In this document: in pieces, positions 26,890 through 49,539 of the stretch | Numbering within the stretch: the stretch's first letter is position 1 | How the letters are laid out: the number at the start of each line of letters is the position of its first letter | NCBI GenBank assembly: GCA_965243645.1 | Contig: CBDEVD010000006.1 | Location: 1,488,838-1,552,837, forward strand | Source: Arenicellales bacterium | GTDB lineage: Bacteria > Pseudomonadota > Gammaproteobacteria > Arenicellales > JAJDZL01 | Reading direction: 5' to 3' | DNA length: 64,000 bases | Translations under genes and position numbers: made by a program | The notes under the pieces: model-generated | Told to the model about the DNA's origin: nothing | Database searches by the model: none | What the model saw: only the letters and a program-made list of their open reading frames with translations

Positions 26890-27071
26890 TGTAAATTCAA
26901 CTGATAGTATTTGACCTGATTCAGACCAAAATGTGCCATGTCATCAGGTATACAAATTGTTCAGGTAGCACGACACCGGCGTGATTAGATTGTGCAGGAA
27001 GCTGCGAGTTCACTACCAGATCGAATTTACAGCAACAAAATACTGTGTCAAACTGGTGTGAAGCGAAGTAA

Positions 27072-27083
27072 TTGGCGTCCCCA
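27072..27083. repeat. attL-like direct repeat TTGGCGTCCCCA (copy of the tRNA-Glu 3' end)
   Basis: Identical 12-mer occurs at 38634-38645 inside tRNA-Glu. The left copy continues as a degenerate tRNA 3' half (..AAGAGGAATTGATTCGCACC). Confidence 0.65.
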
Positions 27084-27111
27084 AGAGGAATTGATTCGCA
27101 CCTTAGGGAGC

Positions 27112-27297
27112 ATGCCAATTTCGATTACTATAATTGATCCTGAAAGAGTACCAGTGTATCAGAGAATAGCTTCCGAAGTATTGCGTCTAAAAGATCTTGG
27201 ATATAGCCAGAACAAAATCGCTCGAACTATAGGAGTTCACTCTAAAGTTGTTGCCAATGCCATTAAATATCAAATGATAAGAGACGAAAAATCATGA
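27112..27297 (+). CDS. Small helix-turn-helix protein (resolvase-type HTH)
   Basis: 61 aa from ATG 27112. The track ORF from 26992 crosses the att repeat. GYSQNKIARTIGVHSKVVANAIKY looks like an HTH_7-type motif. Its stop overlaps the next start (ATGA). Confidence 0.5.
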   Translation: MPISITIIDPERVPVYQRIASEVLRLKDLGYSQNKIARTIGVHSKVVANAIKYQMIRDEKS

Positions 27298-27863
27298 GTA
27301 AGAACGAGTGGACATTAACCCAGATTTCGAATCTACTGGACCAACCACAGTACAGATTGATTTATCTTTGTGAAAAAGGTGTCATCGTACCTGATGGAAG
27401 TGATGCTAAGGGCCGGGGGAGCAGTCGACGATTCTCAGCACGAAATTTGTTTGAATTTGTCGTGGCCCTTAAATTAAGCGAGTTTCATTTACCGACAAAA
27501 TTAACTACAAACGTTCTTAAAGCGCTTCGATCATTTGACAAGCATCTAGGAGAAAGCTATCCAATGCTGAAACTCCCCTATTCACTCAGAATTCCAAACT
27601 CTCCTGAAGTGAAAATAGTTTTGATCAATGGCTCACGTCTGTACTTTTCGATCGGAACCAAGGGTAGAAAAACCACCTATATCGGTGATTTAGATTTGCT
27701 GAACTTCGACAAATATACGGTTTCAAACAATGCTACAGATAATCTCGCTAAGTCTGCATTTCCGATTGAACGGACGAAAACTCTTCCGATCGAGTCAAAA
27801 ATCGCATCGTTTGAATTAAACCTGTCTCAGATAGCAAAAAATATTTCACTGGAATCGGTTTGA
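27294..27863 (+). CDS. MerR/excisionase-like HTH protein with an uncharacterised C-terminal domain
   Basis: 189 aa; N-terminus WTLTQISNLLDQPQYRLIYLCEKGVIVP...GRGSSRRFSARNLFEFVVALKL follows the MerR-type winged-helix pattern. Translationally coupled to the preceding gene. Confidence 0.55.
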   Translation: MSKNEWTLTQISNLLDQPQYRLIYLCEKGVIVPDGSDAKGRGSSRRFSARNLFEFVVALKLSEFHLPTKLTTNVLKALRSFDKHLGESYPMLKLPYSLRIPNSPEVKIVLINGSRLYFSIGTKGRKTTYIGDLDLLNFDKYTVSNNATDNLAKSAFPIERTKTLPIESKIASFELNLSQIAKNISLESV

Positions 27864-30208
27864 TACAGTTTAAACAGGTTTCGATGAAACTACAAATTAT
27901 TCGGTGTGGAGTTTGCTTTGCTATTCGACGGAATTTATGAGCGGCTTTATGTATTGACGCTTTCTTTCGTAGGACACCTTGCAACACAATCAATTTTGGG
28001 GCAATTTTTCGAACAGAATTCTTTGATTCAAGCAGCCATGAGACCGTATTGAATGAGTTTTCAGGATCAAGCCGGAATTAATCGTATCCGAGACGCATTA
28101 TGGCAAAGATTACCTGGAGCGACCGTTATGATAGGTGCAGGATTCAGCAAGAATGCAGAGTCTGCTCAAGGGTCGATGCCCAGTTGGACTGAACTAGCAC
28201 AGTCAATGTGCGAACAATTGTATCCAGATGAAAAGGACCAGCAACGGACGATTTCATTAGCTGCTAGCAATACTACAAGCGGCGCACTACGCCTTGCGCA
28301 GGAGTATAAAGTTGCGTTCGGGCGTAGAGATCTCCATAGATTCCTAAAGAAACATGTCAATGACCAATTGGTGCAGCCCTGTGATTTTCACAAACGGCTA
28401 CTCCAACTTCCTTGGCGGGATGTGTTTACCACTAATTGGGATACGCTACTGGAAAGGGGCCGTTCAATGGTTATAAATCCCTCCTATAGCGTCGTGAACA
28501 GTATTGACGAAATTCCAATTTCTCCAACTCCAAGAATTGTAAAACTGCATGGGTCCTTAAATGGGCATTTCCCACTCATCTTTACAGAGGAAGACTATCG
28601 AACTTTTCCTCAACGTTTTCCTCCTTTTGTGAATATGGTTCAACAATCAATGATGGAATCTGTTTTCCTTTTACTTGGATTTTCTGGAGATGACCCAAAT
28701 TTCTTGCATTGGTCTGGCTGGGTTCGCGACAACCTTGGTGAATCTGCGCCAAGAATTTTCTTGGCTGGGTGGCTGAATTTGTCTAATCACCGCAGAAGAA
28801 TGCTTGAATCTCGCAACGTCGTTTCTATTGATCTCGCTTGCCATCCAAAATCAAATCAGTGGCCACATTCTCTAAGGCACAAAATAGCGACAGATTGGAT
28901 ATTACGATCATTGGAATATGGTCGCCCGTATGAAGTATCTGAGTGGCCATCTCCGCCTCGTCGAGCAGTGGAGTCCGTGGAATCGCACCTAAAACCTATT
29001 CAGACCGTAATGCTGTGGGAACCGAAAGCAGAACCGCAGTTAATTTCTGAACATGGACAAAACGGCACTGAAAAAGTAGAGAAGGTTAGAAGACTGATAG
29101 AGGTTTGGTCCTACAACAGGAAAAACACATATCCAGGTTGGCTGACAGCACCATCAAGAATAAGAACAAATATGTGGTCTACAAGTGAATATGCTAAGGA
29201 TATCTTGGATGAGTTACCTCGGTTTCTCCCTATGGAAAGACTGCTGTCGATTCGAGAACTAACGTGGCGATGGGGGATTATGTTGAATCCATTATCCGAA
29301 GTTGAAGAATTGTCCACAAGACTTGAGAGGGAATCGTCGAACGTTCTAGCAAGTGTAGACTGTTCTCAGCGAAAGGTAGGAGGAGTCAATGTATCGGGCG
29401 CAGAATGGCCAGAGGTTCTAGAAGCTTGGATTGAGCTCAACTTAGCTTTGATGACGTCTGCACGCCATCGTTTTGACAAAAATAGTTTTGAGAGTCGAAT
29501 AAGTTCCGTTCTACCTTTCAAAGATGAAAGTGACGAAATTAATCACCGGATTATCCATGAACAGTGTATGTGGGCAGTTTTCTCATTAGATTTCGTTTCG
29601 CTAAAAAAACTACTTGATGAGTGGGACTGTGGCTCTACGGACCCTGTTTGGATGATGCGTAAGGCGGCACTACTATTCGAAATTGGGGAAGACGAACAGG
29701 CGGAAGAGGTAAACGCATTTGCACTGGCAAAGATTCAACAGAGTAACAATAATCACCAAGATATTGAATTGTCATCCAGAGAAGGTTGGGCTCTGTTTTG
29801 TGCAGGACAATCGTCTGAAGTGGAGGAGTTTTGGTATGCCTCTACCGAGTGGCAACATCGCTGGGATCGGTTTACGCCAATCCAGTGCAACGCGTCTTTG
29901 GAAATGAAACGCTACGAAGACTCCTTCCAAGTAACTACAACCCCGGAAGGAGGTCGACCATTTGACCTTGGGCATGCCTGGGTAGGTGGTTTTTCCTTTT
30001 CGATGAATGCTTACAACCGGTGGGTAGCCGCGCACAGAGCGGTTCGACTTGTCGAGGTTGCTGGTTTGCCTCCTAGAAGGGGCAATATGACGGTGGCATC
30101 AAAACTTCTCGAACTTGCAGCGCGAAACTTGATTACACACGAACCAGAACTAGCGACACGCTTAGTTCTTCGTGCGGCTGAGTATAAAAGTCAAGGAACA
30201 CTCAATTG

Positions 30209-32160
30209 GAGGCCTTTTCGTTGGCGGCCAATTCGTACGCTCTGCGTAACCAAGTTTGACCTCCAATGGAGTCAATTATCCCGCAATCCACTCCACCTGT
30301 GTGTGAATTGAGCACATTGAGCACCACCAGCCTGAATAATCTTCGCCAGTGTAAGATAACACCGAAATTCATCCGCGTTGAATCCTTCAACCTTGTGAAT
30401 ATCTGGCATTTGGAATGAAACGCCCCGTCCAGGCGCCAGGTCAGGCTGCCAACGATAAGACCAGCGAGCGAACCTCGTCGGGTTTGTTCAGCTGCATGGC
30501 AAAATTCGCGGCCGCCATCATGACGACCATTGAGATCGTTACCTTAAGCCCCAGCGATTTTTTGCCGCGCAGGTAGTGACTGTGCAGCATGAAACTATCG
30601 GCCACTCTGGAGTTGATTCGCTCCATTGCGCTTCTTTGGTGGTACAGCCGGTTCCACTTCTTCGTTGCAGGGGGTAGCACCGGGTGCTGCCGCAGGTTGT
30701 CGGCATTCACTTGGGTGCGTACCACTCTGGCCTTGGCGCCGGCTTTTACCTTACCCAGGTAATGACAGTCCTCCCGACCGGCACACTCAAAATCAGACAC
30801 CGAAGCCGGACACTGCCACTTCAGCGTGCCTCTTTTACTCTCATAACCCTGATAATGCATCAGTCGAATCTCACTGGTCTGGGGACAACGACAATATAGA
30901 TCACCGCACTCAGTGCGCAGCATCGTGTCATACACCTGAGCATCCAACGGCCGGGTCGGTACCTTGAGCTGCTCAGGATCGAGATTGACTTCCTGCCACA
31001 GATTGCGCGTGTCAATCACCGGTAAAATATCTTGTTCGTACAACTTCTTGCGCAGCTTATCGCTGTCAAGACCGCGGTCGGCAACAAAACTCTTGCACCG
31101 CGTACCCAACTGCGAGTCAATGAACTCACTCACCAGTGCATCACACAGCGGATGTTCGCTCTGGTTGGCGGGCACCAGCTTGAAATCAATCGGCAATTCA
31201 TAATTAACATCACCCAAAATGCCCAATGAGTAACCATACCAACGCTTCTCAATGACTTTCTCCTTTCCGGTGGCATCGGTGGTGTACTGGCGGTGGCAGC
31301 CCCAGGCGGCATCCGGGTCGGAGGTGCGCTGCTCACCGGTGTCAGGATCAAGGCAGTCCTTACGGCCCGTGGAGTGAGATTCGATGGATTTCCCGTCAAA
31401 GCCAGTGCGTTCACCGAAGTCAGGGCACACTTCAGCAAAACTGTCGCGCAGTTGTTCGAACTGTTGATACAAATAACCGTGTTGATCTTCAACTTTCATG
31501 ATGGTTGCGCGAAACCGGCTAAAGGCCGCTGCTGAGGGGACCCGGTAGGGTAAAAACTGATTGAGGTGATCACCGCCGTCGGGGTTGGCTTTCAATTCAA
31601 ATCCCAGTGTGGTCATCAAGGTGGGATTGCGCATCAGTTCGCGCCGGAACGATTCAGTGCTGCGATGCTGCAGGACACTCATGGCGATTAGTGCGCGCAG
31701 CATTGCCACGACGGGCCAGTCGCAACGGCCGGTGAATCTTCGTTCCCTTAAAATGGCTTCAACCAGTGGCGAAAGCTCAAGCTGGTCGAAGATTCCCTTG
31801 AGTCGTTGCAGCTCAGAACAATCGAGGTAGTCCTTCCAAAATAAGTCATAATTGATGCTTGGTGCCATGGTTCAGCCTGTTGTATTTTGTGGTTTAACAA
31901 TGGTTGCAATTATACTTCACAGAGACTGGATTGTGGCACTAATAATCAATCAAATCATAATGATAGACGAGAATATCCGGATTATCCCAGGACGCTATAG
32001 AGACGCATTGGAAACACCCAGGCAGTGGGGTAGAAATTCGGGATTTTGGCCTCAAAGTGCCAAAAAAGGCCGATTAGGGGCGATATTTTGGGGTAAGCGT
32101 TTTTTCAAGTCTCGGCTTTCGCGCGAAACATCAATACATTACAACCTTCGAAAAGGCCTC
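30209..32160 (-). mobile_element. Insertion sequence, IS4/IS5-superfamily (IS1182-like?), 1952 bp
   Basis: 12-bp perfect terminal inverted repeats GAGGCCTTTTCG (30209-30220) / CGAAAAGGCCTC (32149-32160). Flanked by direct AATTG (30204-30208 and 32161-32165). Confidence 0.85.
30441..31868 (-). CDS. DDE transposase of the IS
   Basis: 475 aa; N-terminal DUF772-like region (LSPLVEAILRERRFTGRCDWPVVAMLRALIAMSVL) and C-terminal YHQRSAMERINSR (Y-x2-R-x3-E). Confidence 0.88.
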   Translation of the reverse strand: MAPSINYDLFWKDYLDCSELQRLKGIFDQLELSPLVEAILRERRFTGRCDWPVVAMLRALIAMSVLQHRSTESFRRELMRNPTLMTTLGFELKANPDGGDHLNQFLPYRVPSAAAFSRFRATIMKVEDQHGYLYQQFEQLRDSFAEVCPDFGERTGFDGKSIESHSTGRKDCLDPDTGEQRTSDPDAAWGCHRQYTTDATGKEKVIEKRWYGYSLGILGDVNYELPIDFKLVPANQSEHPLCDALVSEFIDSQLGTRCKSFVADRGLDSDKLRKKLYEQDILPVIDTRNLWQEVNLDPEQLKVPTRPLDAQVYDTMLRTECGDLYCRCPQTSEIRLMHYQGYESKRGTLKWQCPASVSDFECAGREDCHYLGKVKAGAKARVVRTQVNADNLRQHPVLPPATKKWNRLYHQRSAMERINSRVADSFMLHSHYLRGKKSLGLKVTISMVVMMAAANFAMQLNKPDEVRSLVLSLAA

Positions 32161-33945
32161 AATTGGACACTTTCTAGGAGCACTGTGGCAACAATGCCAT
32201 ACGATGTTGTTAACAAGTTAGTAGAAACGTGCATTAACGCTTCGGAATACATTATTCCTAAACTCAATAAATCTATCAGGGGTAAGCATTGGAACGGTCG
32301 ACTTTCAGTCGTACTGGAAGTATTGTCGAGACTTATTGTGAGGTTGGATACAGAGCGTTCGAGTGAGATGCTCGGCAGAGTGCTAGGTTGGTACAGCGAC
32401 ATTATTAAGTCAATAGATTTTGCACTTCGAAATCCTGTAAGGCACCTACTATTGAGAACATGGGAAACACTTCCACGAGATTTGCAAGGAAAGCATGTTA
32501 TAGACTTGCTAAGGGCCCCGATACCGAGTGTTGCTGGATTTTCTGAAAGAGCCGATAAATTCCAATATCCTGACCCCATTGATGCGGTAAGAGACTATCG
32601 GAACATTGAAGTTACCCGAACAGAAACGAACGATGGAAGCTGGAAGAACATCGTTAGAACTGTACGTAGCGCACTCAGAAGTGACGGAGATGTACGTCAA
32701 CGCGGTATTAGACGACTTGTAGCGCTTACCAAACTCAAAGTTTTAACAAAAGAAGAATCGATAACACTGGCTCAAGGGCTATGGAAACCTAGTGACAGTG
32801 TTGATTGCCAATTTCCTGAAGAAACAGGCATTCTTGAGGAATGGGTTTTCATGGTTTTACCAGAGCCTCGAGAAGGGGTATCTGAGAACAATTTTCGGGA
32901 AAAATGGTTAAGCAATTCCATCGATATTCGGAGAAACCCTAGTGAAATTCTTTGGCAAGTAGGAAGTGCCATCGAGAATTTGAGTGCGCGAGGAACAGAG
33001 TTTCAGATCTCTTCTGAGGAGATGGAGTTTCTAACTGATGTTGTAGAATCATGGGTTCAGGAACCAATACCAATGGAGTTGAGAGTGATTGGTGCAATGA
33101 GGGAGGCATTTGCAGATAACGAGGTTCAAGAAATTCAAAAAGTAATAGTTGGATTGAGAAATATATTGTGGAAAATCGCCATTTCTGAACACTGTGCAGA
33201 AAAAATATATAACAAATGGATGAAACTGAATTCATTGGAAATTCCGGTATTCGATCTAATTCACGTGTTGATTAAGATACTGCCGAATAAAAAAAGCATA
33301 TTAATACAAACACTTCGTACCGGACTCGCTTCAGATGACCCTAAGACGGCAATAAACGCGATTTCTACATTGCAAAATTGGTTAAAGTCCAGGAGAACTG
33401 AAGATGAAGAAACTGAATTCATTCAACCTCCGATCGATTTAATACAAGAAGTAGGCGTCATTGTGTCTACACGCAGGAGAGCAGCTCTTCTCGAAGGTCT
33501 TTTACTTTCGAATTGGATAGTCGAGAATGGCACCGAGAAAGAAAAAAATACAATCAAACCACTCCTTATACAAGGGCTTAATTACCTGAACGAAGAGTTA
33601 AAGTACGAACGTGGTGAAAGAAAGTATGATAACGTGCCAGAGTTGCGCTGGGCATGCACACGTTTAGCTGTATCGATGAATAACCAAAATTGGGCTGAAC
33701 CGGATGGGATTGTTAGTATGTGGATAGAAAACGTAAACAGTGATCCGTTACCGGAGGTACGGAATATCTTCGACAACTGCGGTCAAATACCGGCAACAGA
33801 GTAGAATCCATCGTTTCAGTGAACGGAAATTTATTGCTCTCAATCCTTTGAAAAGTCTGAAAATCGACTTGGCCAAGCAGGGTATTGAAGAACAATTTTG
33901 GTGAAAATCGTGAAACAGGCATACGCTTAACTTGGGTAGAAGAGA

Positions 33946-35787
33946 ATGCAGAATATAGAAGGTGACGACAAAACCGTCGAAGTGTTGCTGTCAGGCGCGG
34001 CATTTGGCATTGACTATTACCAGCGCGAATATCGTTGGGAGCGTAAGCAACTGCAGGAATTAGTTGACGATTTAGTTGGCCAGTTTCTTCAATCATGGAA
34101 TCCTTCAAAACCGGATGCCTCATTAGAAGAACAATCAAAGTATTTTTTGGGTTCTATAGTTGTCAGTAGAGTTGGTGATCTTCGAAATATCGTGGATGGA
34201 CAGCAAAGAATTACCACGATCACTCTATTGCTGATATACCTGAATCACCTACAAAAATGTCTTGACAAAAAAGTGAAGAAAATTGAGTCGTTAATTTATG
34301 ACGAGGAGCCTGGGGGGTATAAATTTAAACTCGACATACAAGAACGCAATGACTGTATGTTCGCGTTACTAAAAGGAGATCACTATAACCCGGAGAATAG
34401 TTCCGGATCAGTCAAAAATATTATTGAAAGATACGAAGATTTCGATGATATTTTCCCGAAAGATCTGTCAGGTGATGCGTTGCACATATTCATTTGGTGG
34501 GTCATACGCAATGTCAAGTTTATCGAAATCGTTGCCCATGATGATGGTGACGCATACACGATATTCGAGACAATGAATGATCGAGGTCTTTCATTAACTC
34601 CTACAGAAATGCTCAAAGGCTATTTACTCGCAAATATTTCTAATCCAAAGAATCGAATCAAAGCAAACAAAACAATTAAAGAATATCTAAATAAATTCGC
34701 GAGGTACGGAAAAGAAACGGACGCAGACTTTTTCAAAGCATGGTTGCGAGCACAATATTCCAACAAAATCAGAGAAAGAAAGAAAGACGCAAAACCGGAA
34801 GACTTTGATCTGATTGGAACGGAGTATCACCGATGGGTACGTAATAATGCTATTCAAATTGGACTAAATATTAGTGGTGACTATTACGAATTTGTAATGA
34901 AGGATTTTCGCTATTTCGCCTCGCTTTACTTACGCCTATTAGATGCTGCCAAGATACGTATGCCCGGAATCGAGAGCGTTCGTTACAATGCTGATGCCGG
35001 CTTTACTCTGCAACATCATATAACGTTAGCTCCCATAACTTCTAATGATAGTGAAGATATCGCACTAACGAAAGTGGGTATAGTGTCAGATTTTCTAGAT
35101 TGCTTGCTCAATCTCAGATTCTGGAACTATAAATCAAATAGTTATTCATCAATGCAATACACAATATTCACAATAATTCGAAGCATCCGAGGGAAATCGA
35201 TAAGTGAATTGCGTAAAATGCTGCGAGGTCGACTACAGGAAGAAATGAATGAAATAAACTTCAATCAACCAGTAGGTCTCAACCAATTTACATCGCGTGC
35301 AGTCCATCGGCAACTTGCGCGGTTTGTTGATTGGCTTCAGTCTGAATCTGATCGCTCGGAAAATTATGAGAACTTTATAGTTCGTTCTGGCAAAGCCGCT
35401 TACGAAATTGAACATATTTGGGCGGACCACCATGAGAGACATAAAGGAGAATTTGAACAACAAAATGATTTTGATTATCACCGTAATCTCATCGGTGGTT
35501 TACTACTCTTGCCAAAGAAAGTCAACAGTAGCTTAAGCGATATGACCTATGAAGATAAACTACCCCACTATCTCAAAGAAAATATTCTGGCTCAATCTCT
35601 GCATAAAGATTTCTACCGCAATAATCCTGGTTTTCATCAGGTGATTGAAAAATTCAACCTGCCGTTCTCACACCATAAAAAGTTTGCCAAATCGGATCTT
35701 GAAGATAGGTGCCAACTTTACTGCCAACTTGCAAAGTTGATTTGGTCACCTGATCGACTGGTTGCCGCTAAAGAGGATACTGTTTGA
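33946..35787 (+). CDS. GmrSD-like type IV (modification-dependent) restriction enzyme, DUF262 + DUF1524
   Basis: 613 aa; N-terminal IDYYQREYRWE and DGQQRITTITLL (DUF262). C-terminal EIEHIWADHHERH...IGGLLLLPKKVNSSL (DUF1524 His-Me finger). Confidence 0.85.
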   Translation: MQNIEGDDKTVEVLLSGAAFGIDYYQREYRWERKQLQELVDDLVGQFLQSWNPSKPDASLEEQSKYFLGSIVVSRVGDLRNIVDGQQRITTITLLLIYLNHLQKCLDKKVKKIESLIYDEEPGGYKFKLDIQERNDCMFALLKGDHYNPENSSGSVKNIIERYEDFDDIFPKDLSGDALHIFIWWVIRNVKFIEIVAHDDGDAYTIFETMNDRGLSLTPTEMLKGYLLANISNPKNRIKANKTIKEYLNKFARYGKETDADFFKAWLRAQYSNKIRERKKDAKPEDFDLIGTEYHRWVRNNAIQIGLNISGDYYEFVMKDFRYFASLYLRLLDAAKIRMPGIESVRYNADAGFTLQHHITLAPITSNDSEDIALTKVGIVSDFLDCLLNLRFWNYKSNSYSSMQYTIFTIIRSIRGKSISELRKMLRGRLQEEMNEINFNQPVGLNQFTSRAVHRQLARFVDWLQSESDRSENYENFIVRSGKAAYEIEHIWADHHERHKGEFEQQNDFDYHRNLIGGLLLLPKKVNSSLSDMTYEDKLPHYLKENILAQSLHKDFYRNNPGFHQVIEKFNLPFSHHKKFAKSDLEDRCQLYCQLAKLIWSPDRLVAAKEDTV

Positions 35788-35803
35788 AGTTCTGGATCAA
35801 TTC

Positions 35804-36538
35804 ATGTCATTACGAGATATTACACAACAGGCTGTATTGGACGCTATTAGCGAATTCAATACCCTTACACGCGAAGTGTTCCTAACAACCTACGAATTCG
35901 GCAAGGCAAAAAAGTATTGGCTAATTTACGACGGACAACGATACGACTCAAAAGCTATTGTAGGAGTTGCACATAAATATGCAACCAATCTAGGGCCATT
36001 AAAGAATTCTGAATTTAGTGGTGGTAAGAAAACAGTCAAACCAAAATTATGCAGTTTGGGGTTTACTGTTATAGATAGTAAAAATGAGGTTAATCAATTA
36101 ATTTTGCCATCTGAATCTTCACCCCCGCCCTTTGACCCGTCAGACGAAACAGATGCCCGAGGACGAATATCTCGAATGATCGCTAGCCGACAAGGTCAAG
36201 GAGCCTTTCGTCACAAAATACTAAACGCCTATAACCGTCGTTGCGCGATTTCTGATTGTGCCGTCGTCGATGTCCTTGAGGCGGCTCATATTGTTCCCTA
36301 TCGAGGTCCAAAGACCAATGTGGCTTCAAATGGACTTCTACTACGTGCGGATATACACACGTTATTCGACTTGGGAATGGTTGCCATCGACAGTAGTCTT
36401 AGAGTTCATGTGCACAACAATCTCAGTGAGACTGAATATTGGGCATTCAATAACAAGGAATTGCGAGTTCCGTCGGCTACAAAACAAAAACCCAATATGG
36501 AAGCATTGAAGTTACATTTAGATCGTTCGCTGTTGTGA
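35804..36538 (+). CDS. HNH endonuclease (HNH_2 type) with an N-terminal McrA/ScoMcrA-like small DNA-binding head domain
   Basis: C-terminal RQGQGAFRHKILNAYNRRCAIS...EAAHIVPY...NGLLLRADIHTLFDLGMVAID. N-terminal YWLIYDGQRYDSKAIVGVAH..FSGG. ATG at 35804 preferred over TTG at 35762. Confidence 0.82.
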   Translation: MSLRDITQQAVLDAISEFNTLTREVFLTTYEFGKAKKYWLIYDGQRYDSKAIVGVAHKYATNLGPLKNSEFSGGKKTVKPKLCSLGFTVIDSKNEVNQLILPSESSPPPFDPSDETDARGRISRMIASRQGQGAFRHKILNAYNRRCAISDCAVVDVLEAAHIVPYRGPKTNVASNGLLLRADIHTLFDLGMVAIDSSLRVHVHNNLSETEYWAFNNKELRVPSATKQKPNMEALKLHLDRSLL

Positions 36539-36809
36539 TTACGAACACCTATGGATACGAATCTCAATCATTCGTAGGATGGGAAAAAGAAAGTTGTACT
36601 ATGATAAATCTGTTGAGCGATGTACCGTTCGACAAGGTGGTTCGTTGATGTACGCCAATATTGATGACATGACAAGTAATTCATTATGCGTTCCAAACAA
36701 AGTATGCCATCTATTGACTTATTCGATCAGTTTAAGTAGTAGAAAATTATCGTAATATGCATTCATTTGTGATAAAATAATAGATATATTATATATATTA
36801 TCTTGAATT

Positions 36810-36965
36810 ATGAATGCACAACAATTACTCAATAACGAGCACTTTTTCAATTCCGATTCGAATGATGTATTCGATGAACTAATTGATCACATCGGAAGTT
36901 TACTTGCACAAGAGTACTTCCAAATTGTGGAAGATGAGAGTCCGGTCGAGGATGATGCAAAATGA
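36810..36965 (+). CDS. Possible small acidic protein (51 aa) immediately upstream of the serine recombinase
   Basis: Hand-found ORF MNAQQLLNNEHFFNSDSNDVFDELIDHIGSLLAQEYFQIVEDESPVEDDAK, below the track cutoff. It ends 16 nt before the recombinase ATG. No family recognised. Confidence 0.25.
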   Translation: MNAQQLLNNEHFFNSDSNDVFDELIDHIGSLLAQEYFQIVEDESPVEDDAK

Positions 36966-36981
36966 ATAATGGAGAATTAGT

Positions 36982-38691
36982 ATGAAAGCTGCAGTATACG
37001 CCCGTTACAGTTCGGAAAACCAGCGTCCGCAAAGTATTGAAGATCAAATTTCAACCTGCCGGAAATTCGCGATTGAAAATGATTTTTTTGTAGATGAAAA
37101 TTACATCTATTCGGATGAAGCAAAGTCAGGGGCGAGTAATGATCGAGATGGTCTCAATTCTCTAAGTGCAGCAGCACGCAACCACCATTTTGAAGTTGTA
37201 CTCGTAGATGATTTATCGCGTTTGGCACGAAATAATTACTTGATGCTTACGGTCCTCGCAGACCTTAGTTTTGAAGGAATTCGGGTAATATCAGTCGCAG
37301 ACGGATTGGATAGTAATGACCAAGAATCAACTCTTGGAATCCAAATTAGAGGGATTTTTAACGAACTTCAATTGCAGGATCTCAAGAAGAAAACGATGAG
37401 AGGTATGATTGGACAAAAACAGCGCGGATTCTCGGCGGGTGAACGCACGTTTGGATATACGTCTATTCCGGTAGGTGATATCCATTTAGATTCAAAAGGT
37501 AAGGAAAGACCTGAAGGATACAGAAAGGTAATTGATCCTCGCGAATCCGCGATTGTGTTGAGAGTATTTGAACATTATCGAAACGGTTGCTCAATCAACC
37601 AAATAGTAAAAATATTCAACCAGGAGAGTGTACCAACTCCGAAAAACAATACTAAAGCATGGTCAGCTGGAACTGTAAGTCGTATTATCAACAACGAAAA
37701 ATATATCGGGAAGTGGGTTTGGAACAAAACCGGAACTCGCCGCGATCCGAGAACTGGACGACAAAAGAAATTCAACAAACCAGAATCGGAGTGGATCGTC
37801 AAATTCGACGACAGTTTGCGTATTGTTTCACAGGATATCTGGGACGAAGTTCAAGCTCGAAGGAATGAACGGAAAAAGTCATGGCCTGGAGGAAAAGGCA
37901 AACGTGGTTTTGAGAGCAAGAATGGAAGTGTGGAAAAACACTTTCCAACAGATCTTTTTTCTGGTGCTATGACCTGCAAGAAATGTGGATCTACGATAGG
38001 AAAAGTGAGTGGAAAAGGTGGTGGATATTTCGGCTGTCTTGGAACAAAGATCGGCAAATGCGACAACAAGGTCAACGTGCGACGAAGCGTCCTGGAAAAC
38101 TTAATCCTTGACGATGTAAAACAACTGCTATCTGAACCCGAAAATATTCAAAGTGTTCTCAACAGTGTCGCAAACAAAATGAAAGAGCTATACTCGGAAT
38201 TTCCAAACAAAATTACCCGGAGAGAAAAAGAGTTGGCATCTGAAGAAAGAAAGCTCAACAATTTCATTAATTTTATCGGTGAAGGAAAGGGTACCCGGTC
38301 TCTCAACCACGCACTGATTGAAAGCGAAAACAAAATAGACAAGCTGAAAAATGAAATTCATGTGCTCCAGACTTCTCATTCAAAGGCGGTCCAAGCACCA
38401 CCGGTCAGATGGATTCAGAATCGACTCAACCATATTCAACACTTGCTTGAACGGAACATTTCTGAATCTGCAATGGTGTTAAGAAAATTACTCGGACCTA
38501 TTGAGCTCGAACCGGTATTTCCGGAGACCGGTAGACCGTATTACTTAGCACATACTACTTTTGAGACAATTTCCATAGTGGTAGATAAAAAATTCGCGCC
38601 TAACCCATTGGACAAAGGTGCGAATCAATATAGTTGGCGTCCCCACGGGGATTCGAACCCCGGTCGCCAGCGTGAAAGGCTGGTGTCCTAG
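36982..38691 (+). CDS. Large serine recombinase (resolvase domain + recombinase domain + Zn ribbon + coiled coil)
   Basis: 569 aa; AAVYARYSSENQ (catalytic Ser), VLVDDLSRLARN, GYRKVIDPRESAIV..., CKKCGS...GCLG Zn-ribbon cysteines, coiled-coil NKIDKLKNEIHVLQ. The last ~19 codons are antisense tRNA-Glu sequence (WRPHGDSNPG). Confidence 0.9.
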   Translation: MKAAVYARYSSENQRPQSIEDQISTCRKFAIENDFFVDENYIYSDEAKSGASNDRDGLNSLSAAARNHHFEVVLVDDLSRLARNNYLMLTVLADLSFEGIRVISVADGLDSNDQESTLGIQIRGIFNELQLQDLKKKTMRGMIGQKQRGFSAGERTFGYTSIPVGDIHLDSKGKERPEGYRKVIDPRESAIVLRVFEHYRNGCSINQIVKIFNQESVPTPKNNTKAWSAGTVSRIINNEKYIGKWVWNKTGTRRDPRTGRQKKFNKPESEWIVKFDDSLRIVSQDIWDEVQARRNERKKSWPGGKGKRGFESKNGSVEKHFPTDLFSGAMTCKKCGSTIGKVSGKGGGYFGCLGTKIGKCDNKVNVRRSVLENLILDDVKQLLSEPENIQSVLNSVANKMKELYSEFPNKITRREKELASEERKLNNFINFIGEGKGTRSLNHALIESENKIDKLKNEIHVLQTSHSKAVQAPPVRWIQNRLNHIQHLLERNISESAMVLRKLLGPIELEPVFPETGRPYYLAHTTFETISIVVDKKFAPNPLDKGANQYSWRPHGDSNPGRQRERLVS

Positions 38692-38712
38692 ACCTGACTA
38701 GACGATGGGGAC
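38635..38712 (-). tRNA. tRNA-Glu (anticodon UUC)
   Basis: Minus strand GTCCCCATCGTCTAGTCAGGTCTAGGACACCAGCCTTTCACGCTGGCGACCGGGGTTCGAATCCCCGTGGGGACGCCA folds as a cloverleaf: acceptor GTCCCCA/TGGGGAC, anticodon stem CCAGC/GCTGG with loop CTTTCAC, T-arm CGGGG-TTCGAAT-CCCCG, encoded CCA. Confidence 0.9.
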
Positions 38713-39142: not shown

Positions 39143-40369
39143 CTAATTTTCAGCACTTTCGAACGCGCTTGCATAGGCGTCTATGTCGACGGCACTCATA
39201 CCAAGTTGTCGCGCAACTTCGCGCCATTTGGCTATGACCTGGGACACTTCGATAATGATCTGATCTGCCTGATTCGCTTTGAGAGCGAAATACGGCGCTG
39301 CTCTGCGAGCTAAATCAATAGAGGCTTGCGGTCCTTCTTCTGAAATCCATGTTGTCAATTCGCGCACCGACTCCTCAAGGGGCACGGGGTTGAGATCATA
39401 AGCGGGTGATAACTGCCACTTACCGTCTCCTGCATAGAGAAATCCGTGGTTTCTCAGGTGGTCGTCGACATTGCCAATCATTACCCCAAAAATCATTCGC
39501 CTCCAGAGGTCGCATAAATCTTGAATCGGAGATATTGAATGCATGCGTATACTCTCAGCAATATCGGTGTAGGTTGCTATATCTCCATCATTGATTCCCA
39601 ATAGGCTCATTGCTGACAGAAACGGAATGCGGCGGTGCTCTGCCCGGTCGAAACGTCGTATAAGTGCGACCGAGCGCCCGGCAACCACCTCTATGCGTCC
39701 GCACGCGGTATTGATACCGGCTTGCTTGGCCAAAGTGAGAGCCAGAATTTCACCGTGGGTGATGCTACGATCATCATCTAATTTTGGAAACTTCGCAATT
39801 GCAAGCTGTCCGTCTTTATCAACAACAGCAGATTTTGGTCTTGCACCGCCGAGAGGAGATCCCTGGTTTAGCAGTAGATGCAAATCGTCTGTGGTTTCCG
39901 TGTTATTCAATACGGCATCAACAGCATTAAGTAACGCTGACATTTGAGTGAGAGGAGGCGTTTGATATTCGCCAATATTGAAATTAAGATGAGATTCACC
40001 TGCCCGCCTGTATCGAAGCGCACCAATTCGAGTGGCATCTTTCATCGCTAGCAGATAGTCAATTTCTGAAAGCGAACGCTTTTCACCGGATCGACGAAAG
40101 GCACGATGGATTAACTGCCGACCCCAACGATCAGGTGCGCTGTCTCGCAAGGGACCCGGCAAAGCTGATTTCTCAGAATTCGAGTAAACTGGATGCGGAC
40201 TAAGCGGAAGATTGGCTGGATCAAGTGCGAATGGCTTGCGGTAGGTTAGCCATTCATCGGCATATTCAAAAATGGAACTTTGGCTACGAAATTTATCCGC
40301 ATAACGGCATAGACCGACAAGCCGCGTCTCACCAAGACTATCAACGTAGACTTCTAGAGTTTCAGTCAT
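39143..40369 (-). CDS. hipA: HipA-family serine/threonine kinase toxin
   Basis: 408 aa; N-terminal coupling domain (LEVYVDSLGETRLVGL...FEYADEWL...DPANLPL). Catalytic IGNVDDHLRNHGFL and SPAYDLNP motifs are intact. Confidence 0.85.
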   Translation of the reverse strand: MTETLEVYVDSLGETRLVGLCRYADKFRSQSSIFEYADEWLTYRKPFALDPANLPLSPHPVYSNSEKSALPGPLRDSAPDRWGRQLIHRAFRRSGEKRSLSEIDYLLAMKDATRIGALRYRRAGESHLNFNIGEYQTPPLTQMSALLNAVDAVLNNTETTDDLHLLLNQGSPLGGARPKSAVVDKDGQLAIAKFPKLDDDRSITHGEILALTLAKQAGINTACGRIEVVAGRSVALIRRFDRAEHRRIPFLSAMSLLGINDGDIATYTDIAESIRMHSISPIQDLCDLWRRMIFGVMIGNVDDHLRNHGFLYAGDGKWQLSPAYDLNPVPLEESVRELTTWISEEGPQASIDLARRAAPYFALKANQADQIIIEVSQVIAKWREVARQLGMSAVDIDAYASAFESAEN

Positions 40370-40647
40370 GGCTTACATTTCCCGCGGCGATGCGTGACAA
40401 TCCGTTTTGGCAGTGGAGACTTTTCAATGTCGAGACCAAAGGCATCATTGCTGTGGTCGAAAATCGCACCTGACATAAATCAGGACAAAGGTGCGCATCA
40501 ATGTCAGTGGTGGACCCGAGTAAAATTGATTTGAATTCTCGCGAGTGTATCAACTACGTGAGATTAATCGAACCAATAAGGCTAACATCTCCTCGACAGT
40601 TATACTTCTTCACGATTCATAATGTTAATTTAATATACAATCAAAAT

Positions 40648-40665
40648 ATACATATTTATATGTAT
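40648..40665. promoter_or_regulatory. Perfect palindrome ATACATAT-TT-ATATGTAT upstream of phd (candidate operator)
   Basis: 8-bp arms with a 2-bp spacer, 31 bp upstream of the TTG start that has an AGGAG RBS. Phd/YefM antitoxins autoregulate through palindromic operators. Confidence 0.4.
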
Positions 40666-40695
40666 TTTGACCTACTCAATGACAGGAGCTTGAAA

Positions 40696-40944
40696 TTGGA
40701 AAGAATCTTGGCAAATAAAACCGTGTCCCTTACCGAACTTAGAGACCCCGCAAAAGTACTAGCAGGAGCAGGCGAATCACCGGTTGCGGTTTTAAACCGC
40801 AGTAACGTAGTCGGATATTTTGTACCAAAATCAGCGGTAGATAACGTAGATTTCAGGTACGCCGACACCGTTGATGTGCAAAAAACTGTTGATGAGTCAA
40901 TTGAACAAAACAAAGAACTACTTGACTACCTAAAAGACAAATAA
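40696..40944 (+). CDS. phd: Phd/YefM-family antitoxin
   Basis: 82 aa from TTG 40696 (AGGAG 7 nt upstream). An in-frame ATG at 40660 lacks an RBS. ..KTVSLTELRDPAKVL....PVAVLNRSNVVGYFVP.. pattern. Confidence 0.75.
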   Translation: MERILANKTVSLTELRDPAKVLAGAGESPVAVLNRSNVVGYFVPKSAVDNVDFRYADTVDVQKTVDESIEQNKELLDYLKDK

Positions 40945-40945
40945 A

Positions 40946-41317
40946 TTGGAAATCTTACGCAGTGTGGGTGTGCTGAACATTCACGCAAAGGTCATTAGCC
41001 CACAGGAGCTGCAAGGCCTAGCAGGCAATAAATCTTTGGAGGCAATCATCCATCGTATTGAGAATCGCATCCTCTACGGGATGATTGGAGACGTGTACGA
41101 TCTTGCCGCAACTTATGCTGTTGTAATTGCGGTTGACCACGTGTTCAATGATGCAAATAATAGAACAGCGGTTATCGCAATGGATACGGCTTTGCGTAGA
41201 AACGGAATCAGTTTAAGATTTGATGCTGAAAAAATGGGTCAAGTCATCATCAAGGTTGCACAGGGAATAGTTGACGAAACAGAATTGGCACGTCACCTTC
41301 GTTCTTTGTCGCAATAG
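40946..41317 (+). CDS. doc: Doc (death-on-curing) Fic-fold toxin
   Basis: 123 aa; Doc-type Fic motif HVFNDANNRTA (HxFx[DN][AG]NxR). Starts 1 nt after the phd stop. Confidence 0.85.
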   Translation: MEILRSVGVLNIHAKVISPQELQGLAGNKSLEAIIHRIENRILYGMIGDVYDLAATYAVVIAVDHVFNDANNRTAVIAMDTALRRNGISLRFDAEKMGQVIIKVAQGIVDETELARHLRSLSQ

Positions 41318-41432
41318 CAAATGCAAAGAAGAAAATTGTGATAATCGTAACTATTTACGACAATCAAGTTTAATTCGGAATAAAGTCATTAGCCGTTTAA
41401 CGATTTTCGATCATAACTGGAGGATTGTCCTA

Positions 41433-43418: not shown

Positions 43419-43599
43419 ATGCGTTTTCGATTTGCGTCAAATTTTCGAGTAATTGAATAAATTTATTGATTCGCAATTAGATCACATTCTGCCGAGTTGG
43501 TGTCGATTATGATCCACAAATTTCATAAGTGCTGTTAGAGAGCTTCCTTCTTTTGTACATTAGCAGCACCATTCCCAACAAGTCAGATCTCCGTTCCCT

Positions 43600-44106
43600 T
43601 CCACGATCTAACACCAACCCTGAATATTAATCGATATACGACAACCCTGAATCCGAGTGGATTTCTCACACTGACGAAAAACTAAAAATTGTTCCTCAAG
43701 ACCTTTGGGATGAAGTTAGTACAAAAAACTTGTCCGTAAAAGGCTTGGCCAGAAAGAAGAGGCAAACTGACCAACTTCATTGGAGAGGGCAAAGTGACCA
43801 TGTCCCTCAACCAAGCGTTGGTGAACACGTAAAACAAAGTAATCAATTTGAAGAACGAAATCGAATTTCTACAAAGCACCTATTCGAAAACCATAGAAAC
43901 GTCTTCTGTGGAGTGGATAAAGCAAAGACTATTCCAAATTCAATCGCTCCTGGAACAATAATCTGATCAATCCGCAATTGTGCTGCGAAAACTACTGAGG
44001 CTTATTGAACTCGAACCAGTTATATACGATACTGAAATACCGTCTTACATTGCACACACAAAGTTTGAAACGATTTCAATATAGGAAGACAGATTTACAC
44101 CTGCCT
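43600..44106 (+). pseudogene. Relic A of a large serine recombinase (3' part only; internal deletion, three in-frame stops)
   Basis: Reads NPESEWISHTDEKLKIVPQDLWDEV...NFIGEGKVTMSLNQALVNT*NKVINLKNEIEFLQ...AIVLRKLLRLIELEPV...YIAHTKFETISI*EDRFTP, colinear with the intact protein at 36982-38691. Cut off by the IS terminus at 44107. Left limit approximate. Confidence 0.75.
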
Positions 44107-45135: not shown

Positions 45136-45332
45136 TGTAGGTAACGGTTGAATATCCCAAAAGTAACGGTTGAAATTCCCCACTATTTAGTGGGCAACAT
45201 AGTGGGGACTATCTCGCCAACCGAACTATGTAGCGTAGTTTATTAACATCCTAATTTAATTGTAAAAAATCAAATCGATGACGACATAGTATAGGCTTCA
45301 ATCACAGCCCGTTTATGGGCAGGAGCTATATT

Positions 45333-48859: not shown

Positions 48860-48867
48860 TGTAGGTT

Positions 48868-49463: not shown

Positions 49464-49539
<76 letters not shown>

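What the first reader, a model, noticed from the sequence alone, without database searches (positions are those of the whole stretch)
27072..38645. 11.6-kb island at the 3' end of tRNA-Glu whose integrase is a large serine recombinase, not a tyrosine integrase
A perfect 12-bp direct repeat TTGGCGTCCCCA occurs at 27072-27083 and 38634-38645. The right copy is the acceptor/CCA end of an intact tRNA-Glu(UUC). The left copy runs on as a decayed tRNA 3' half (TGGCGTCCCCAAGAGGAATTGATTCGCACC versus TGGCGTCCCCACGGGGATTCGAACCCCGG). The interval is AT-richer than both flanks. It ends with a 569-aa serine recombinase whose final ~19 codons (WRPHGDSNPGRQRERLVS) are antisense tRNA sequence. tRNA-targeting islands are classically tyrosine-integrase elements, and I cannot recall a characterised large serine integrase that uses a tRNA 3' end as attB. 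The cargo is entirely defence-type: SIR2, GmrSD-like and HNH genes.
Basis: partly seen in the sequence, partly recalled or inferred. Interest (0 to 1): 0.72.

Follow-up and report, generated by a model that had tools for sequence, protein, structure and literature searches.

The report
Serine-integrase defence island in tRNA-Glu
An 11.6-kb mobile island of anti-phage genes sits in the 3' end of a tRNA-Glu gene, put there by a large serine integrase from a widespread, almost undescribed family that targets tRNA and tmRNA genes and whose own gene is cut by the insertion.

Summary
The observation largely holds. An 11,562-bp island lies between tRNA-Glu(UUC) and an M16 peptidase gene. A relative has the empty site: tRNA-Glu, 194 nt, M16. 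The only recombinase inside is a canonical large serine recombinase (LSR).

One detail is wrong. The "decayed tRNA half" at the left end is the P' arm of attP. It is a perfect 15-bp inverted repeat of the P arm.

A 9-bp GGTKCGAAT motif lies at half-site positions 16-24 in P and P'. The tRNA T-arm supplies the same motif at positions 11-19. This is the 5-bp attP/attB shift described for LI integrase.

The family is large and spans many phyla. In 62 of 80 related loci the LSR gene ends inside a tRNA or tmRNA gene, and 62 of 63 junctions share the spacing.

attP lies inside the LSR gene. In 7 of 7 reconstructed excised forms the reading frame continues into a conserved ~70-aa helix-turn-helix domain, which integration strands at attL. 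A conserved MerR-like 189-aa partner accompanies the LSR.

Cargo is DSR2 (split by an IS), GmrSD and an HNH nuclease.

The only precedent found is the Dehalococcoides ssrA islands (DsiB, 2011). I rate this a new variant of a known kind.

The parts
27053..27104 (+). attL, made of the B arm (host DNA downstream of the ancestral tRNA 3' end) and the P' arm. The inferred crossover dinucleotide TC is at 27078/27079. The 12-bp core repeat is 27072-27083. The P' zinc-ribbon-type motif ATTCGCACC (reverse complement GGTGCGAAT) is at 27094-27102, which is half-site positions 16-24.
   Evidence: (I11)
27073..27297 (+). Detached 3' end of the recombinase gene: 74 codons plus stop, encoding WRPQEELIRT... 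and a helix-turn-helix domain. It is in the same frame as the LSR ORF across attP, so the excised form would encode a 625-aa protein.
27294..27863 (+). orf189, the conserved partner of the recombinase. It has a MerR-type winged-helix N-terminal half and a beta-rich C-terminal half. It is a candidate directionality factor or regulator (inference only).
28053..30210 (+). DSR2 (SIR2 anti-phage protein), N-terminal part, covering PADLOC profile positions 13-691.
30211..32167 (-). Insertion sequence interrupting DSR2. The DDE transposase is at 30441-31868 (minus strand). The terminal inverted repeat is GGCCTTTTCG, the target duplication is CTCAATTGGA (30201-30210 and 32158-32167), and GC is 0.517.
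   Evidence: (I8)
32168..33804 (+). DSR2 C-terminal part, covering profile positions 691-1218. Removing the IS and one duplication copy restores a 1264-aa ORF.
33946..35787 (+). GmrSD-type (DUF262/DUF1524) type IV restriction enzyme.
35762..36538 (+). HNH_2 nuclease. It has weak similarity to a phosphorothioate-DNA-dependent restriction endonuclease and to a type IV enzyme N-terminal domain.
36982..38691 (+). Large serine recombinase in its integrated form (569 aa). Domains: catalytic, recombinase, zinc ribbon with coiled coil, and a C-terminal helical/beta region. The last 16 residues are encoded antisense to the tRNA downstream of the inferred crossover. From residue 528 to the end the model is predicted disordered.
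38615..38666 (+). attR, made of the P arm and the B' arm (the tRNA). The P motif GGTGCGAAT is at 38617-38625 (positions 16-24). The inferred crossover TC is at 38640/38641. The B' motif ATTCGAACC, which is the tRNA T-arm, is at 38651-38659 (positions 11-19). The core repeat is 38634-38645.
38635..38712 (-). tRNA-Glu(UUC), the integration target. Its last 6 nt (ACGCCA) are now supplied by the element's P arm.

Best explanation
This is an integrative mobile island of 11,562 bp (27079-38640). A large serine recombinase (LSR) inserted it into the 3' end of tRNA-Glu(UUC).

Reconstructed attP. The sequence is AAGGTGCGAATCAATATAGTTGGCGT|CCCCAAGAGGAATTGATTCGCACCTT. It lies inside the 3' end of the LSR gene.

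How the sites are read. Each attP arm carries the 9-bp motif GGTGCGAAT at half-site positions 16-24. I infer this is the binding site of the zinc-ribbon domain. In attB the tRNA's own T-arm (GGTTCGAAT) provides the same motif 5 bp closer to the centre, at positions 11-19. This is the attP/attB asymmetry that lets serine integrases tell their sites apart.

Strand exchange. It is inferred at the non-palindromic dinucleotide TC, 6/7 nt from the tRNA's CCA end. The element's P arm carries TGGCGT, so the tRNA is rebuilt intact.

Effect on the recombinase gene. Integration cuts the LSR gene. The last 73 codons, which include a helix-turn-helix domain, end up at attL 11.5 kb away. About 16 antisense-tRNA codons replace them. 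The full 625-aa enzyme can only be encoded after excision, or in a tandem array. I infer this is a built-in switch of recombinase activity or regulation, possibly acting with the conserved MerR-like orf189 as excision factor or regulator.

Chassis and cargo. The chassis (LSR, HTH tail, orf189) carries exchangeable anti-phage cargo. Here that is DSR2 (now inactivated by an IS), GmrSD and an HNH nuclease.

Shown: the island boundaries, the empty site, the site geometry, the family-wide tRNA/tmRNA association, and the in-frame conserved tail. Inferred: which protein domain reads which motif, the exact cleavage position, current activity, and the role of the split and of orf189.
For: Boundaries:
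- A 12-bp repeat not expected by chance.
- A perfect 15-bp inverted repeat just inside both repeat copies (I11).
- The empty site tRNA-Glu, 194 nt, M16 in relative L083.
- Low GC in the island.

Enzyme:
- Three LSR Pfam domains.
- Ser10, Arg8 and four zinc-ribbon cysteines are invariant in 42 homologues.
- The AF2 model matches the full-length SPbeta-type, Bxb1 and PhiC31 integrase structures, with E down to 4e-21.
- No tyrosine recombinase in the island.

Family:
- More than 1000 homologues. Nearly all of the top 120 end in antisense-tRNA/tmRNA peptides.
- 62 of 80 genome loci have a tRNA or tmRNA overlapping the LSR 3' end: tmRNA 33, Ser 14, Ala 5, Glu 4, Met 4, Arg 1, plus L009, whose tmRNA starts 204 nt beyond the LSR match end.
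- 10 more loci have fragments or contig-cut tmRNAs.

Geometry:
- In 62 of 63 junctions the best GGTTCGAAT-like motif lies exactly 25 nt (15 + 10) upstream of the T-arm motif.
- This corresponds to positions 16-24 in attP and 11-19 in attB, as reported for LI integrase (PMC3783163).
- In five tmRNA islands the attL/attR identity block ends one base to the right of the geometric centre (GTGG|A). This independently places the crossover there.

Gene split:
- 7 of 7 reconstructed excised forms read in frame into a conserved tail, giving 592-634 aa in total; 6 of the 7 keep the full helix-turn-helix tail and the seventh (L034) stops early. One tail passes the Pfam HTH_23 threshold.
- Fused ORFs exist in databases and metagenome contigs, for example L175 with at least 560 aa.

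Modularity: sister island L007 has an 80% identical LSR in tRNA-Glu(CUC) at another locus. It has the same tail and orf189 but carries a type I R-M system plus M78/DUF4411.

orf189 is found in at least 50 of 80 loci.
Against: - No excised circle or attB-containing sibling of this exact strain was found. The exact-attB metagenome scan gave 0 hits.
- Fused LSR-tail ORFs in databases can also arise from tandem arrays (the L024 attL; L085 is a truncated remnant). They therefore do not prove circles.
- The left (B) arm of attB has only a weak motif in the window (6 of 9 positions). My own reading of the attL sequence printed finds almost none (1 of 9) in L007.
- The truncated 569-aa protein keeps every domain that canonical serine integrases need. 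The HTH tail may therefore be dispensable.
- DSR2 is disrupted by an IS, which shows some residence time and decay.
- No transfer functions (relaxase, capsid genes) are present, so how the island moves between cells is unknown.
Confidence: 0.82

Rival explanations
1. The island was integrated by the LSR as described, but the HTH 'tail' is an independent small gene or a regulatory leftover. On this reading the in-frame continuity across attP has no functional meaning, and the 552 element-encoded residues are the whole working enzyme.
For: - The truncated protein has all canonical LSR domains.
- In the window and in L007 an ATG precedes the HTH (..LGSMP..).
- Gene callers predict many short stand-alone ORFs for this domain.
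- Part of the tail's conservation (W-T-R-T-Q-R-I-R-T) is forced by the DNA sequence of the P' arm.
Against: - The frame is kept in 7 of 7 independent islands from several phyla, with no stop between the crossover and the HTH.
- Most tails have no ATG or other obvious internal start before the HTH. Examples are L015, L029 and L037 and P0243.
- Contiguous fused ORFs exist.
- A more distant 802-aa LSR carries three such HTH repeats as a genuine C-terminus (P0252).
Confidence: 0.3
2. The element is now a fixed relic. It was integrated in the past by the LSR but can no longer excise, because the integrated recombinase is truncated or its partner functions are lost.
For: - DSR2 is split by an IS.
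- A neighbouring island of the same family at tRNA-Ala is clearly dead.
- Many family members in databases are truncated remnants.
- No circle was found.
Against: - The LSR ORF is intact, with all invariant residues.
- attL and attR arms are a perfect 15-bp inverted repeat and the core is a perfect 12-bp repeat.
- orf189 and the tail ORF are both intact.
Confidence: 0.2
3. The island entered by some other route, such as a lost tyrosine integrase or homologous recombination between tRNA copies. The serine recombinase would then be a passenger, for example a resolvase or invertase.
For: tRNA 3' ends are the classical targets of tyrosine integrases (Williams 2002, Hudson 2015).
Against: - There is no tyrosine recombinase in 27072-38645.
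- The recombinase gene itself contains the att site, in this island and in 62 of 80 relatives.
- The palindromic ~50-bp attP with a 2-bp crossover geometry is the signature of a serine integrase, not of a tyrosine integrase.
Confidence: 0.02

Closest known systems
Dehalococcoides ssrA-specific genomic islands with serine recombinase DsiB (McMurdie et al. 2011, PMC3146451)
   Same: - A ~540-aa CcrB-like large serine recombinase sits at the island end next to a tRNA-like gene (ssrA).
- A direct repeat of the gene's 3' end flanks the island.
- The recombinase ORF always runs across the att site, with its stop codon outside the island.
- Tandem arrays occur.
- The authors speculated that the gene might be complete only in the circular form.
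- The window's LSR also scores best against CcrB among named families.
   Different: - The target here is a true tRNA (Glu). Family members use Ser, Ala, Met, Arg and Val tRNAs as well as tmRNA.
- The six-gene Dsi integration module (small serine recombinase DsiA, RecF-like, ParB, Mom with embedded tRNA-like locus, RNA-polymerase-domain protein) is absent. A 189-aa MerR-like partner is present instead.
- The repeat is 12 bp here, against 20 bp there.
- That paper placed the insertion in the T-loop. Here the crossover is placed 6/7 nt from the 3' end.
- Sequence relatedness to DsiB could not be tested.
Canonical phage serine integrases (LI/A118, Bxb1, PhiC31, SPbeta)
   Same: - The same domain order and fold.
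- A ~50-bp palindromic attP with a non-palindromic central dinucleotide.
- A 9-bp distal motif at positions 16-24 in attP and 11-19 in attB.
   Different: - Sequence identity is below 32% to anything in the phage or plasmid collections.
- attB is a tRNA/tmRNA 3' end rather than a protein-coding gene.
- attP lies inside the integrase gene.
- There is an extra C-terminal HTH domain that integration removes.
- The elements are small non-phage islands.
Integrase genes that contain their own attP: SSV1-type archaeal integrases and Myxococcus phage Mx8 IntP
   Same: Integration at a tRNA gene partitions or changes the C-terminus of the integrase gene, so integrated and free forms encode different proteins. 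This rests on my own knowledge. Tojo et al. 1996 on Mx8 is cited in the Islander paper.
   Different: Those enzymes are tyrosine recombinases, with a different chemistry and a different att architecture.
Classical tRNA-integrated genomic islands (Islander/TIGER type) and tycheposons
   Same: They target a tRNA 3' end, rebuild the tRNA from element sequence, and carry defence or adaptive cargo. A minority of tycheposons (27 of 937) carry a large serine recombinase.
   Different: They are overwhelmingly driven by tyrosine integrases. The Islander authors excluded serine integrases because none were known to target tRNA genes.

Membership tests
Large serine recombinase / serine integrase | N-terminal resolvase-type catalytic domain with the nucleophilic serine | tested here: met
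   PF00239 at 2.3e-26, residues 3-149. Y6, R8, S10 and S11 are invariant in 42 homologues. Structural match to resolvase and integrase catalytic domains.
Large serine recombinase / serine integrase | Recombinase domain followed by a zinc-ribbon domain with an inserted coiled coil | tested here: met
   PF07508 at 3.8e-24 and PF13408 at 1.6e-08. C332, C335, C352 and C360 are invariant. The AF2 model shows long helices at 368-467 after the ribbon. Full-length Foldseek matches to 9dxh, 9iu2 and 9rah, with E from 4e-21 to 2e-17.
Large serine recombinase / serine integrase | A ~50-bp attP with inverted-repeat arms around a 2-bp crossover, and a shorter attB with the distal (zinc-ribbon) motif shifted 5 bp inward | tested here: met
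   A 52-bp reconstructed attP with perfect 15-bp arms. The motif is at positions 16-24 in P and P' and at 11-19 in the tRNA arm, in 62 of 63 junctions. This matches Rutherford et al. 2013. The left B arm has only a weak motif.
Large serine recombinase / serine integrase | Demonstrated attP x attB recombination, and RDF-dependent excision | not testable with these tools
   No experiment was possible, and no circular junction was found.
Dehalococcoides ssrA-GI (DsiB) elements | The serine recombinase ORF overlaps the att site, and the island is flanked by a repeat of the target's 3' end | tested here: met
   description of the family
Dehalococcoides ssrA-GI (DsiB) elements | The target is the tmRNA gene ssrA | tested here: not met
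   The window's target is tRNA-Glu(UUC). However, 33 of 80 related loci do abut tmRNA directly, and L009 lies 204 nt from one.
Dehalococcoides ssrA-GI (DsiB) elements | A six-gene integration module (DsiA small serine recombinase, RecF-like, ParB, Mom with embedded tRNA-like locus, RNA-polymerase-domain protein) | tested here: not met
   None of these domains is found in the island's ORFs. The only RNA gene is the target tRNA.
Dehalococcoides ssrA-GI (DsiB) elements | Orthology of the recombinase to DsiB (ACZ62382) | not testable with these tools
   The DsiB sequence could not be fetched. Both proteins are CcrB-like.
Classical tRNA-targeting genomic island | Integration in a tRNA/tmRNA gene, with the element restoring the gene and leaving a repeat at the far end | tested here: met
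Classical tRNA-targeting genomic island | A tyrosine-family integrase encoded at the island end | tested here: not met
   There is no Phage_integrase domain between 27072 and 38645. The three tyrosine recombinases in the window lie outside the island, at 45315-48513.
DSR2 anti-phage system | A single ~1200-aa protein with an N-terminal SIR2 domain and the DSR2-specific C-terminal region | tested here: inconclusive
   Both halves match the Dsr2 profiles (4.9e-139 and 4.2e-32; NCBIfam 1e-138). The gene is interrupted by an IS. The restored ORF would be 1264 aa.

The most novel reading that the evidence does not exclude
A clade of large serine integrases found across many bacterial phyla reads the near-universal tRNA T-arm with its zinc-ribbon domain. 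This would let lineages hop between tmRNA and many tRNA species. The clade would also use integration-coupled loss of a C-terminal HTH domain, caused by attP lying inside the integrase gene, as an intrinsic switch of activity or directionality. Together with a MerR-like partner this would form a minimal ~4-kb chassis that shuttles defence genes. Such enzymes would be natural starting points for integrases aimed at tRNA genes in any organism.
Probability: 0.35. Interest if true: 0.85.

Novelty: new variant of a known kind. Interest (0 to 1): 0.68.

Why it matters
Textbook and database practice treat tRNA-gene integration as the domain of tyrosine integrases. The Islander pipeline excluded serine integrases for this reason. 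This window belongs to a family of more than 1000 serine integrases spread over many phyla that does the same job with different chemistry. Island-finding tools keyed to tyrosine integrases would therefore miss a whole class of tRNA/tmRNA islands, many of them defence islands.

The att sites give an unusually clear natural example of the attP/attB 5-bp-shift rule. They suggest how one enzyme scaffold can be retargeted among tRNAs: the T-arm stays constant while the acceptor stem varies.

The split integrase gene with a conserved detachable HTH domain offers a testable mechanism for controlling directionality or expression.

Serine integrases are leading genome-engineering tools. A family whose natural target is a motif present in every tRNA gene could therefore be of practical interest.

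Tried and rejected
- Exact look-up of the window's LSR (P0001) and of M16 homologue P0124 in the contig index: not on record.
- Exact-match scan of JGI metagenomes for the predicted empty attB (38-mer): 0 hits. The empty site was found instead through M16 peptidase homologues.
- L081 and L082 (M16 84% identical) end about 1 kb upstream of M16 and carry another gene there. They were uninformative for the tRNA.
- tblastn of the reconstructed 625-aa protein against plasmid and phage collections gave only distant LSRs, below 32% identity. The family is not represented among sequenced plasmids or phages. IMG/VR holds only three family-level hits.
- Looked for proof of a free circular form. Fused LSR-tail ORFs exist. 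But L085 is a truncated remnant, and L175 is cut by the contig start with no wrap-around. Circle and tandem array could not be told apart.
- Searching upstream flanks for direct repeats of the tRNA end found few attL sites, because most islands exceed the 10-kb flank. Searching for the P' inverted repeat worked better.
- Pfam, NCBIfam and PHROGs give nothing for orf189. Only structure prediction placed it, as MerR-like.
- The relationship to DsiB could not be tested because no sequence was accessible.
- The TIGER paper (Mageeney 2020) is not in the held library. I could not check whether it already lists serine integrases at tRNA genes.
- Rejected the 'decayed tRNA half' reading and the 'tyrosine integrase lost' reading (see rivals).


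Full report
**1. The observation**

The 12-mer TTGGCGTCCCCA occurs exactly twice in the window, at 27072-27083 and 38634-38645. None of 100 dinucleotide-preserving shuffles gave any match.

The right copy is the 3' end of an intact tRNA-Glu(UUC) on the minus strand, 38635-38712 (ARAGORN; Rfam 62 bits).

A 569-aa ORF (36982-38691) ends 57 nt inside the tRNA on the opposite strand. It has Resolvase, Recombinase and Zn_ribbon_recom domains.

The interval has GC 0.433, or 0.415 without an inserted IS. The flanks have 0.49.

One element is not. The sequence following the left repeat is not a decayed tRNA half. Positions 27090-27104 (ATTGATTCGCACCTT) are a perfect 15-bp inverted repeat of 38615-38629 (AAGGTGCGAATCAAT), and both lie just inside the direct repeats (I11).

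**2. Boundaries and the empty site**

Homologues of the flanking M16 peptidase were collected and their contigs fetched. In L083 (M16 78% identical) a tRNA-Glu(ttc) lies 194 nt upstream of the M16 start codon, with nothing in between.

In the window the left repeat lies 183 nt from the M16 start. The tRNA ends in GGGGACGCCA in both genomes, so the insertion rebuilt it.

**3. The att sites have serine-integrase architecture**

Joining the two island ends gives a 52-bp attP: AAGGTGCGAATCAATATAGTTGGCGT|CCCCAAGAGGAATTGATTCGCACCTT. It is symmetric about the marked centre. The centre falls inside the 12-bp identity block, 6/7 nt from the tRNA's CCA end. The central dinucleotide TC is not palindromic.

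- Each P arm carries GGTGCGAAT with 15 nt between it and the centre. That is half-site positions 16-24.
- In the tRNA arm of attB the T-arm GGTTCGAAT lies 10 nt from the centre, at positions 11-19.
- Rutherford et al. 2013 showed for LI integrase that the zinc-ribbon domain reads a 9-bp motif at positions 16-24 of attP. The same motif sits 5 bp closer, at 11-19, in attB.

The numbers coincide.

**4. The pattern holds across the family**

The recombinase has more than 1000 homologues. Nearly all of the top 120 end in peptides such as WWRRRESNPRP, WWARKDSNLRPMDYESTALTD or WRPxGDSNP. These are translations of antisense tRNA/tmRNA 3' ends.

A scan of one genome per species found 543 relatives, of which the best 80 loci were kept.

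- In 62 of them a tRNA or tmRNA gene on the opposite strand overlaps the 3' end of the recombinase gene: tmRNA 33, tRNA-Ser 14, Ala 5, Glu 4, Met 4, Arg 1, plus L009, whose tmRNA starts 204 nt beyond the LSR match end.
- Ten of the remaining 18 show a tRNA/tmRNA 3' fragment or a tmRNA cut by the contig end. Three have a truncated recombinase gene.
- Hosts include Arenicellales (the closest relatives, 72-83% identity), Acidobacteriota, Gemmatimonadota, Solirubrobacterales, Myxococcota, Methylomirabilota, Binatia, Omnitrophota, Planctomycetes-type MAGs and delta-proteobacterial lineages (Desulfomonilaceae, Syntrophorhabdaceae).
- A viral-collection contig adds tRNA-Val.
- In 62 of 63 junctions the best GGTTCGAAT-like motif lies exactly 25 nt (15 + 10) upstream of the T-arm motif.
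- The P-arm motif can co-vary with the host T-arm. In L033 and L035 both are GGTGCGAAT.

Searching for the P' inverted repeat recovered attL in six further islands (L007, L015, L024, L029, L034, L037). In the tmRNA islands the identity between attL and attR is only GTGG|A. It stops one base to the right of the geometric centre. A 2-bp crossover at that centre predicts exactly this, and the evidence is independent of the palindrome.

**5. The enzyme**

Ser10, Arg8 and four zinc-ribbon cysteines are invariant in 42 homologues.

The AF2 model (pLDDT 74.6) has the expected order: catalytic domain, long helix E, recombinase domain, zinc ribbon, long coiled-coil helices (368-467), and a further helical/beta region. 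From residue 528 to the end the model is disordered (pLDDT below 50). This stretch covers the attP-encoded residues and the antisense-tRNA-encoded tail.

Foldseek aligns the model over its full length to the SPbeta-type, Bxb1 and PhiC31 integrase structures, with E from 4e-21 to 2e-17. Among named families CcrB scores best, but far below its cutoff.

Nothing above 32% identity exists in the phage or plasmid collections. Only three family-level hits exist in IMG/VR. These are chromosomal islands, not known phages or plasmids.

**6. Integration splits the recombinase gene**

The ORF at attL (26992-27297) is in the same frame, through W-R-P, as the recombinase ORF at attR.

I reconstructed the excised form for seven islands from different lineages. 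In all seven the ORF continues across attP. In six it runs through a conserved ~70-aa tail with the pattern ..P.YQ.IA....L..LG.S...IA..LGV..K.V.KAI.., giving proteins of 618-634 aa. The seventh (L034) stops early, at 592 aa.

The tail is a helix-turn-helix. For the L037 tail, HTH_23 scores 26.9 bits against a threshold of 24.6. The other tails give weaker HTH hits.

An exhaustive profile search with the window's 74-aa tail found 177 relatives. Most are short ORFs called across attL. Several are contiguous LSR-C-terminus + tail fusions (P0264, P0311, P0369, P0373, P0256). One distant 802-aa LSR ends in three such HTH repeats.

A pattern scan of metagenomes for the tmRNA-type P|P' junction found 12 contigs. 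One of them, L175, has an uninterrupted fused ORF of at least 560 aa.

These fusions can come from excised circles or from tandem arrays, as in the L024 attL, where one island's P arm abuts the next island's P' arm. I could not tell the two apart.

What is shown: the HTH domain is conserved as protein and is always in frame with the recombinase across attP. What is inferred: the 625-aa protein is the complete enzyme, and truncation on integration changes its activity or regulation.

McMurdie et al. raised the same possibility for dsiB.

**7. A conserved partner**

The 189-aa ORF at 27294-27863 overlaps the tail's stop codon. It has tblastn matches in at least 50 of the 80 loci. In most it lies immediately upstream of the recombinase gene. 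In the window, L007, L009 and L015 it lies right after the tail.

It has 746 homologues, none with a Pfam domain or a name. Its AF2 model (pLDDT 83.9) has a MerR-type winged-helix N-terminal half. The top Foldseek hit is CvkR (E = 3e-3, probability 1.0), followed by many MerR-family members.

A role as directionality factor or regulator is an inference only.

The smallest island seen (L037, 4.2 kb) is essentially tail + orf189 + recombinase.

**8. Cargo**

- The SIR2 ORF matches Dsr2 profile positions 13-691, and the next long ORF matches 691-1218 (NCBIfam).
- Between them lies an IS: a DDE transposase on the minus strand, GC 0.517, 10-bp terminal inverted repeats and a 10-bp target duplication CTCAATTGGA.
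- Removing the IS restores a 1264-aa ORF.
- A GmrSD-type enzyme and an HNH nuclease follow.

The sister island L007 has an 80% identical recombinase. It sits in tRNA-Glu(CUC) between a thioredoxin gene and pcnB. It has the same tail and orf189 but carries a type I restriction system and an M78/DUF4411 pair. The chassis is constant and the defence cargo is exchangeable.

**9. Comparison with the literature**

- The one clear precedent I found is the Dehalococcoides ssrA islands. They have a CcrB-like 540-aa serine recombinase whose ORF always crosses the att site, a 20-bp repeat of the tmRNA 3' end, and tandem arrays.
- The present element shares that architecture. It differs in targeting a true tRNA, in lacking the six-gene Dsi module, and in having the MerR-like partner.
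- I did not find the following described anywhere: the family-wide tRNA repertoire, the T-arm/zinc-ribbon geometry, or the conserved HTH tail.
- A minority of Prochlorococcus tycheposons carry a large serine recombinase, but no att analysis is given.
- I could not read the TIGER paper, so some of this may already be catalogued there.

**10. Verdict**

It is a new variant of a known kind (serine-integrase islands; DsiB-type att-in-gene architecture), not a new category.

Confidence that this is a serine-integrase-mediated insertion into tRNA-Glu with the stated site geometry is high, about 0.8-0.9. Confidence that the gene split is a functional switch is moderate, about 0.4-0.5.

Noticed in passing
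window 43556-49539: A second, decayed island of the same family lies at the neighbouring tRNA-Ala(GGC) (49464-49539, minus strand). A P-arm-like GATGCGAAT sits 9 nt before the tRNA 3' end, with the family's spacing. LSR pseudogene fragments are at 43556-43726 and 43773-44102 (57% identity to residues 430-540).
   Followed up: partly
window 44107-49318: A recombinase-in-trio element has apparently inserted into the 3' part of the dead LSR gene. It has three tandem tyrosine recombinase genes (45315-46562, 46544-47506, 47488-48513), bounded by ~450-bp inverted repeats (44107-44553 and 48874-49318).
   Followed up: partly
window 30201-32167: An IS (DDE_Tnp_1/DUF772 transposase, GC 0.517) splits the DSR2 gene. 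It has 10-bp terminal inverted repeats GGCCTTTTCG and a 10-bp target duplication CTCAATTGGA. Clean removal restores a 1264-aa DSR2.
   Followed up: yes
window 39143-43418: Between the two tRNAs lie further toxin and defence-type genes: HipA kinase (39143-40369, minus), a Fic/DOC fragment (40946-41317) and an AIPR abortive-infection protein (41433-43418, minus; GC 0.34). They are probably cargo of the decayed tRNA-Ala island. The relative L083 has Calx-beta genes there instead.
   Followed up: partly
L024 2150-2220; L085 10001-10516: Tandem arrays occur. The attL of one island abuts the P arm of another LSR, which creates attP-like P|P' junctions and fused LSR-tail ORFs inside chromosomes. This mirrors the Dehalococcoides ssrA arrays.
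   Followed up: partly
L086 and L087 5312-5387: Two IMG/VR contigs with a 50% identical LSR carry an odd tRNA-like gene (4-nt anticodon 'ctac') about 600 nt upstream of the LSR. It recalls the pseudo-tRNA embedded in the Dehalococcoides integration module.
   Followed up: no
L033 and L035 attR: The tmRNA T-arm is GGTGCGAAT instead of GGTTCGAAT, and the element's P-arm motif carries the same change. This suggests co-variation of the element with its host target.
   Followed up: no
window 35762-36538: The HNH protein combines an N-terminal region resembling type IV methyl-directed restriction enzymes with an HNH domain resembling phosphorothioate-DNA-dependent nucleases. Its reading frame overlaps the end of the GmrSD gene by 26 nt.
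   Followed up: no
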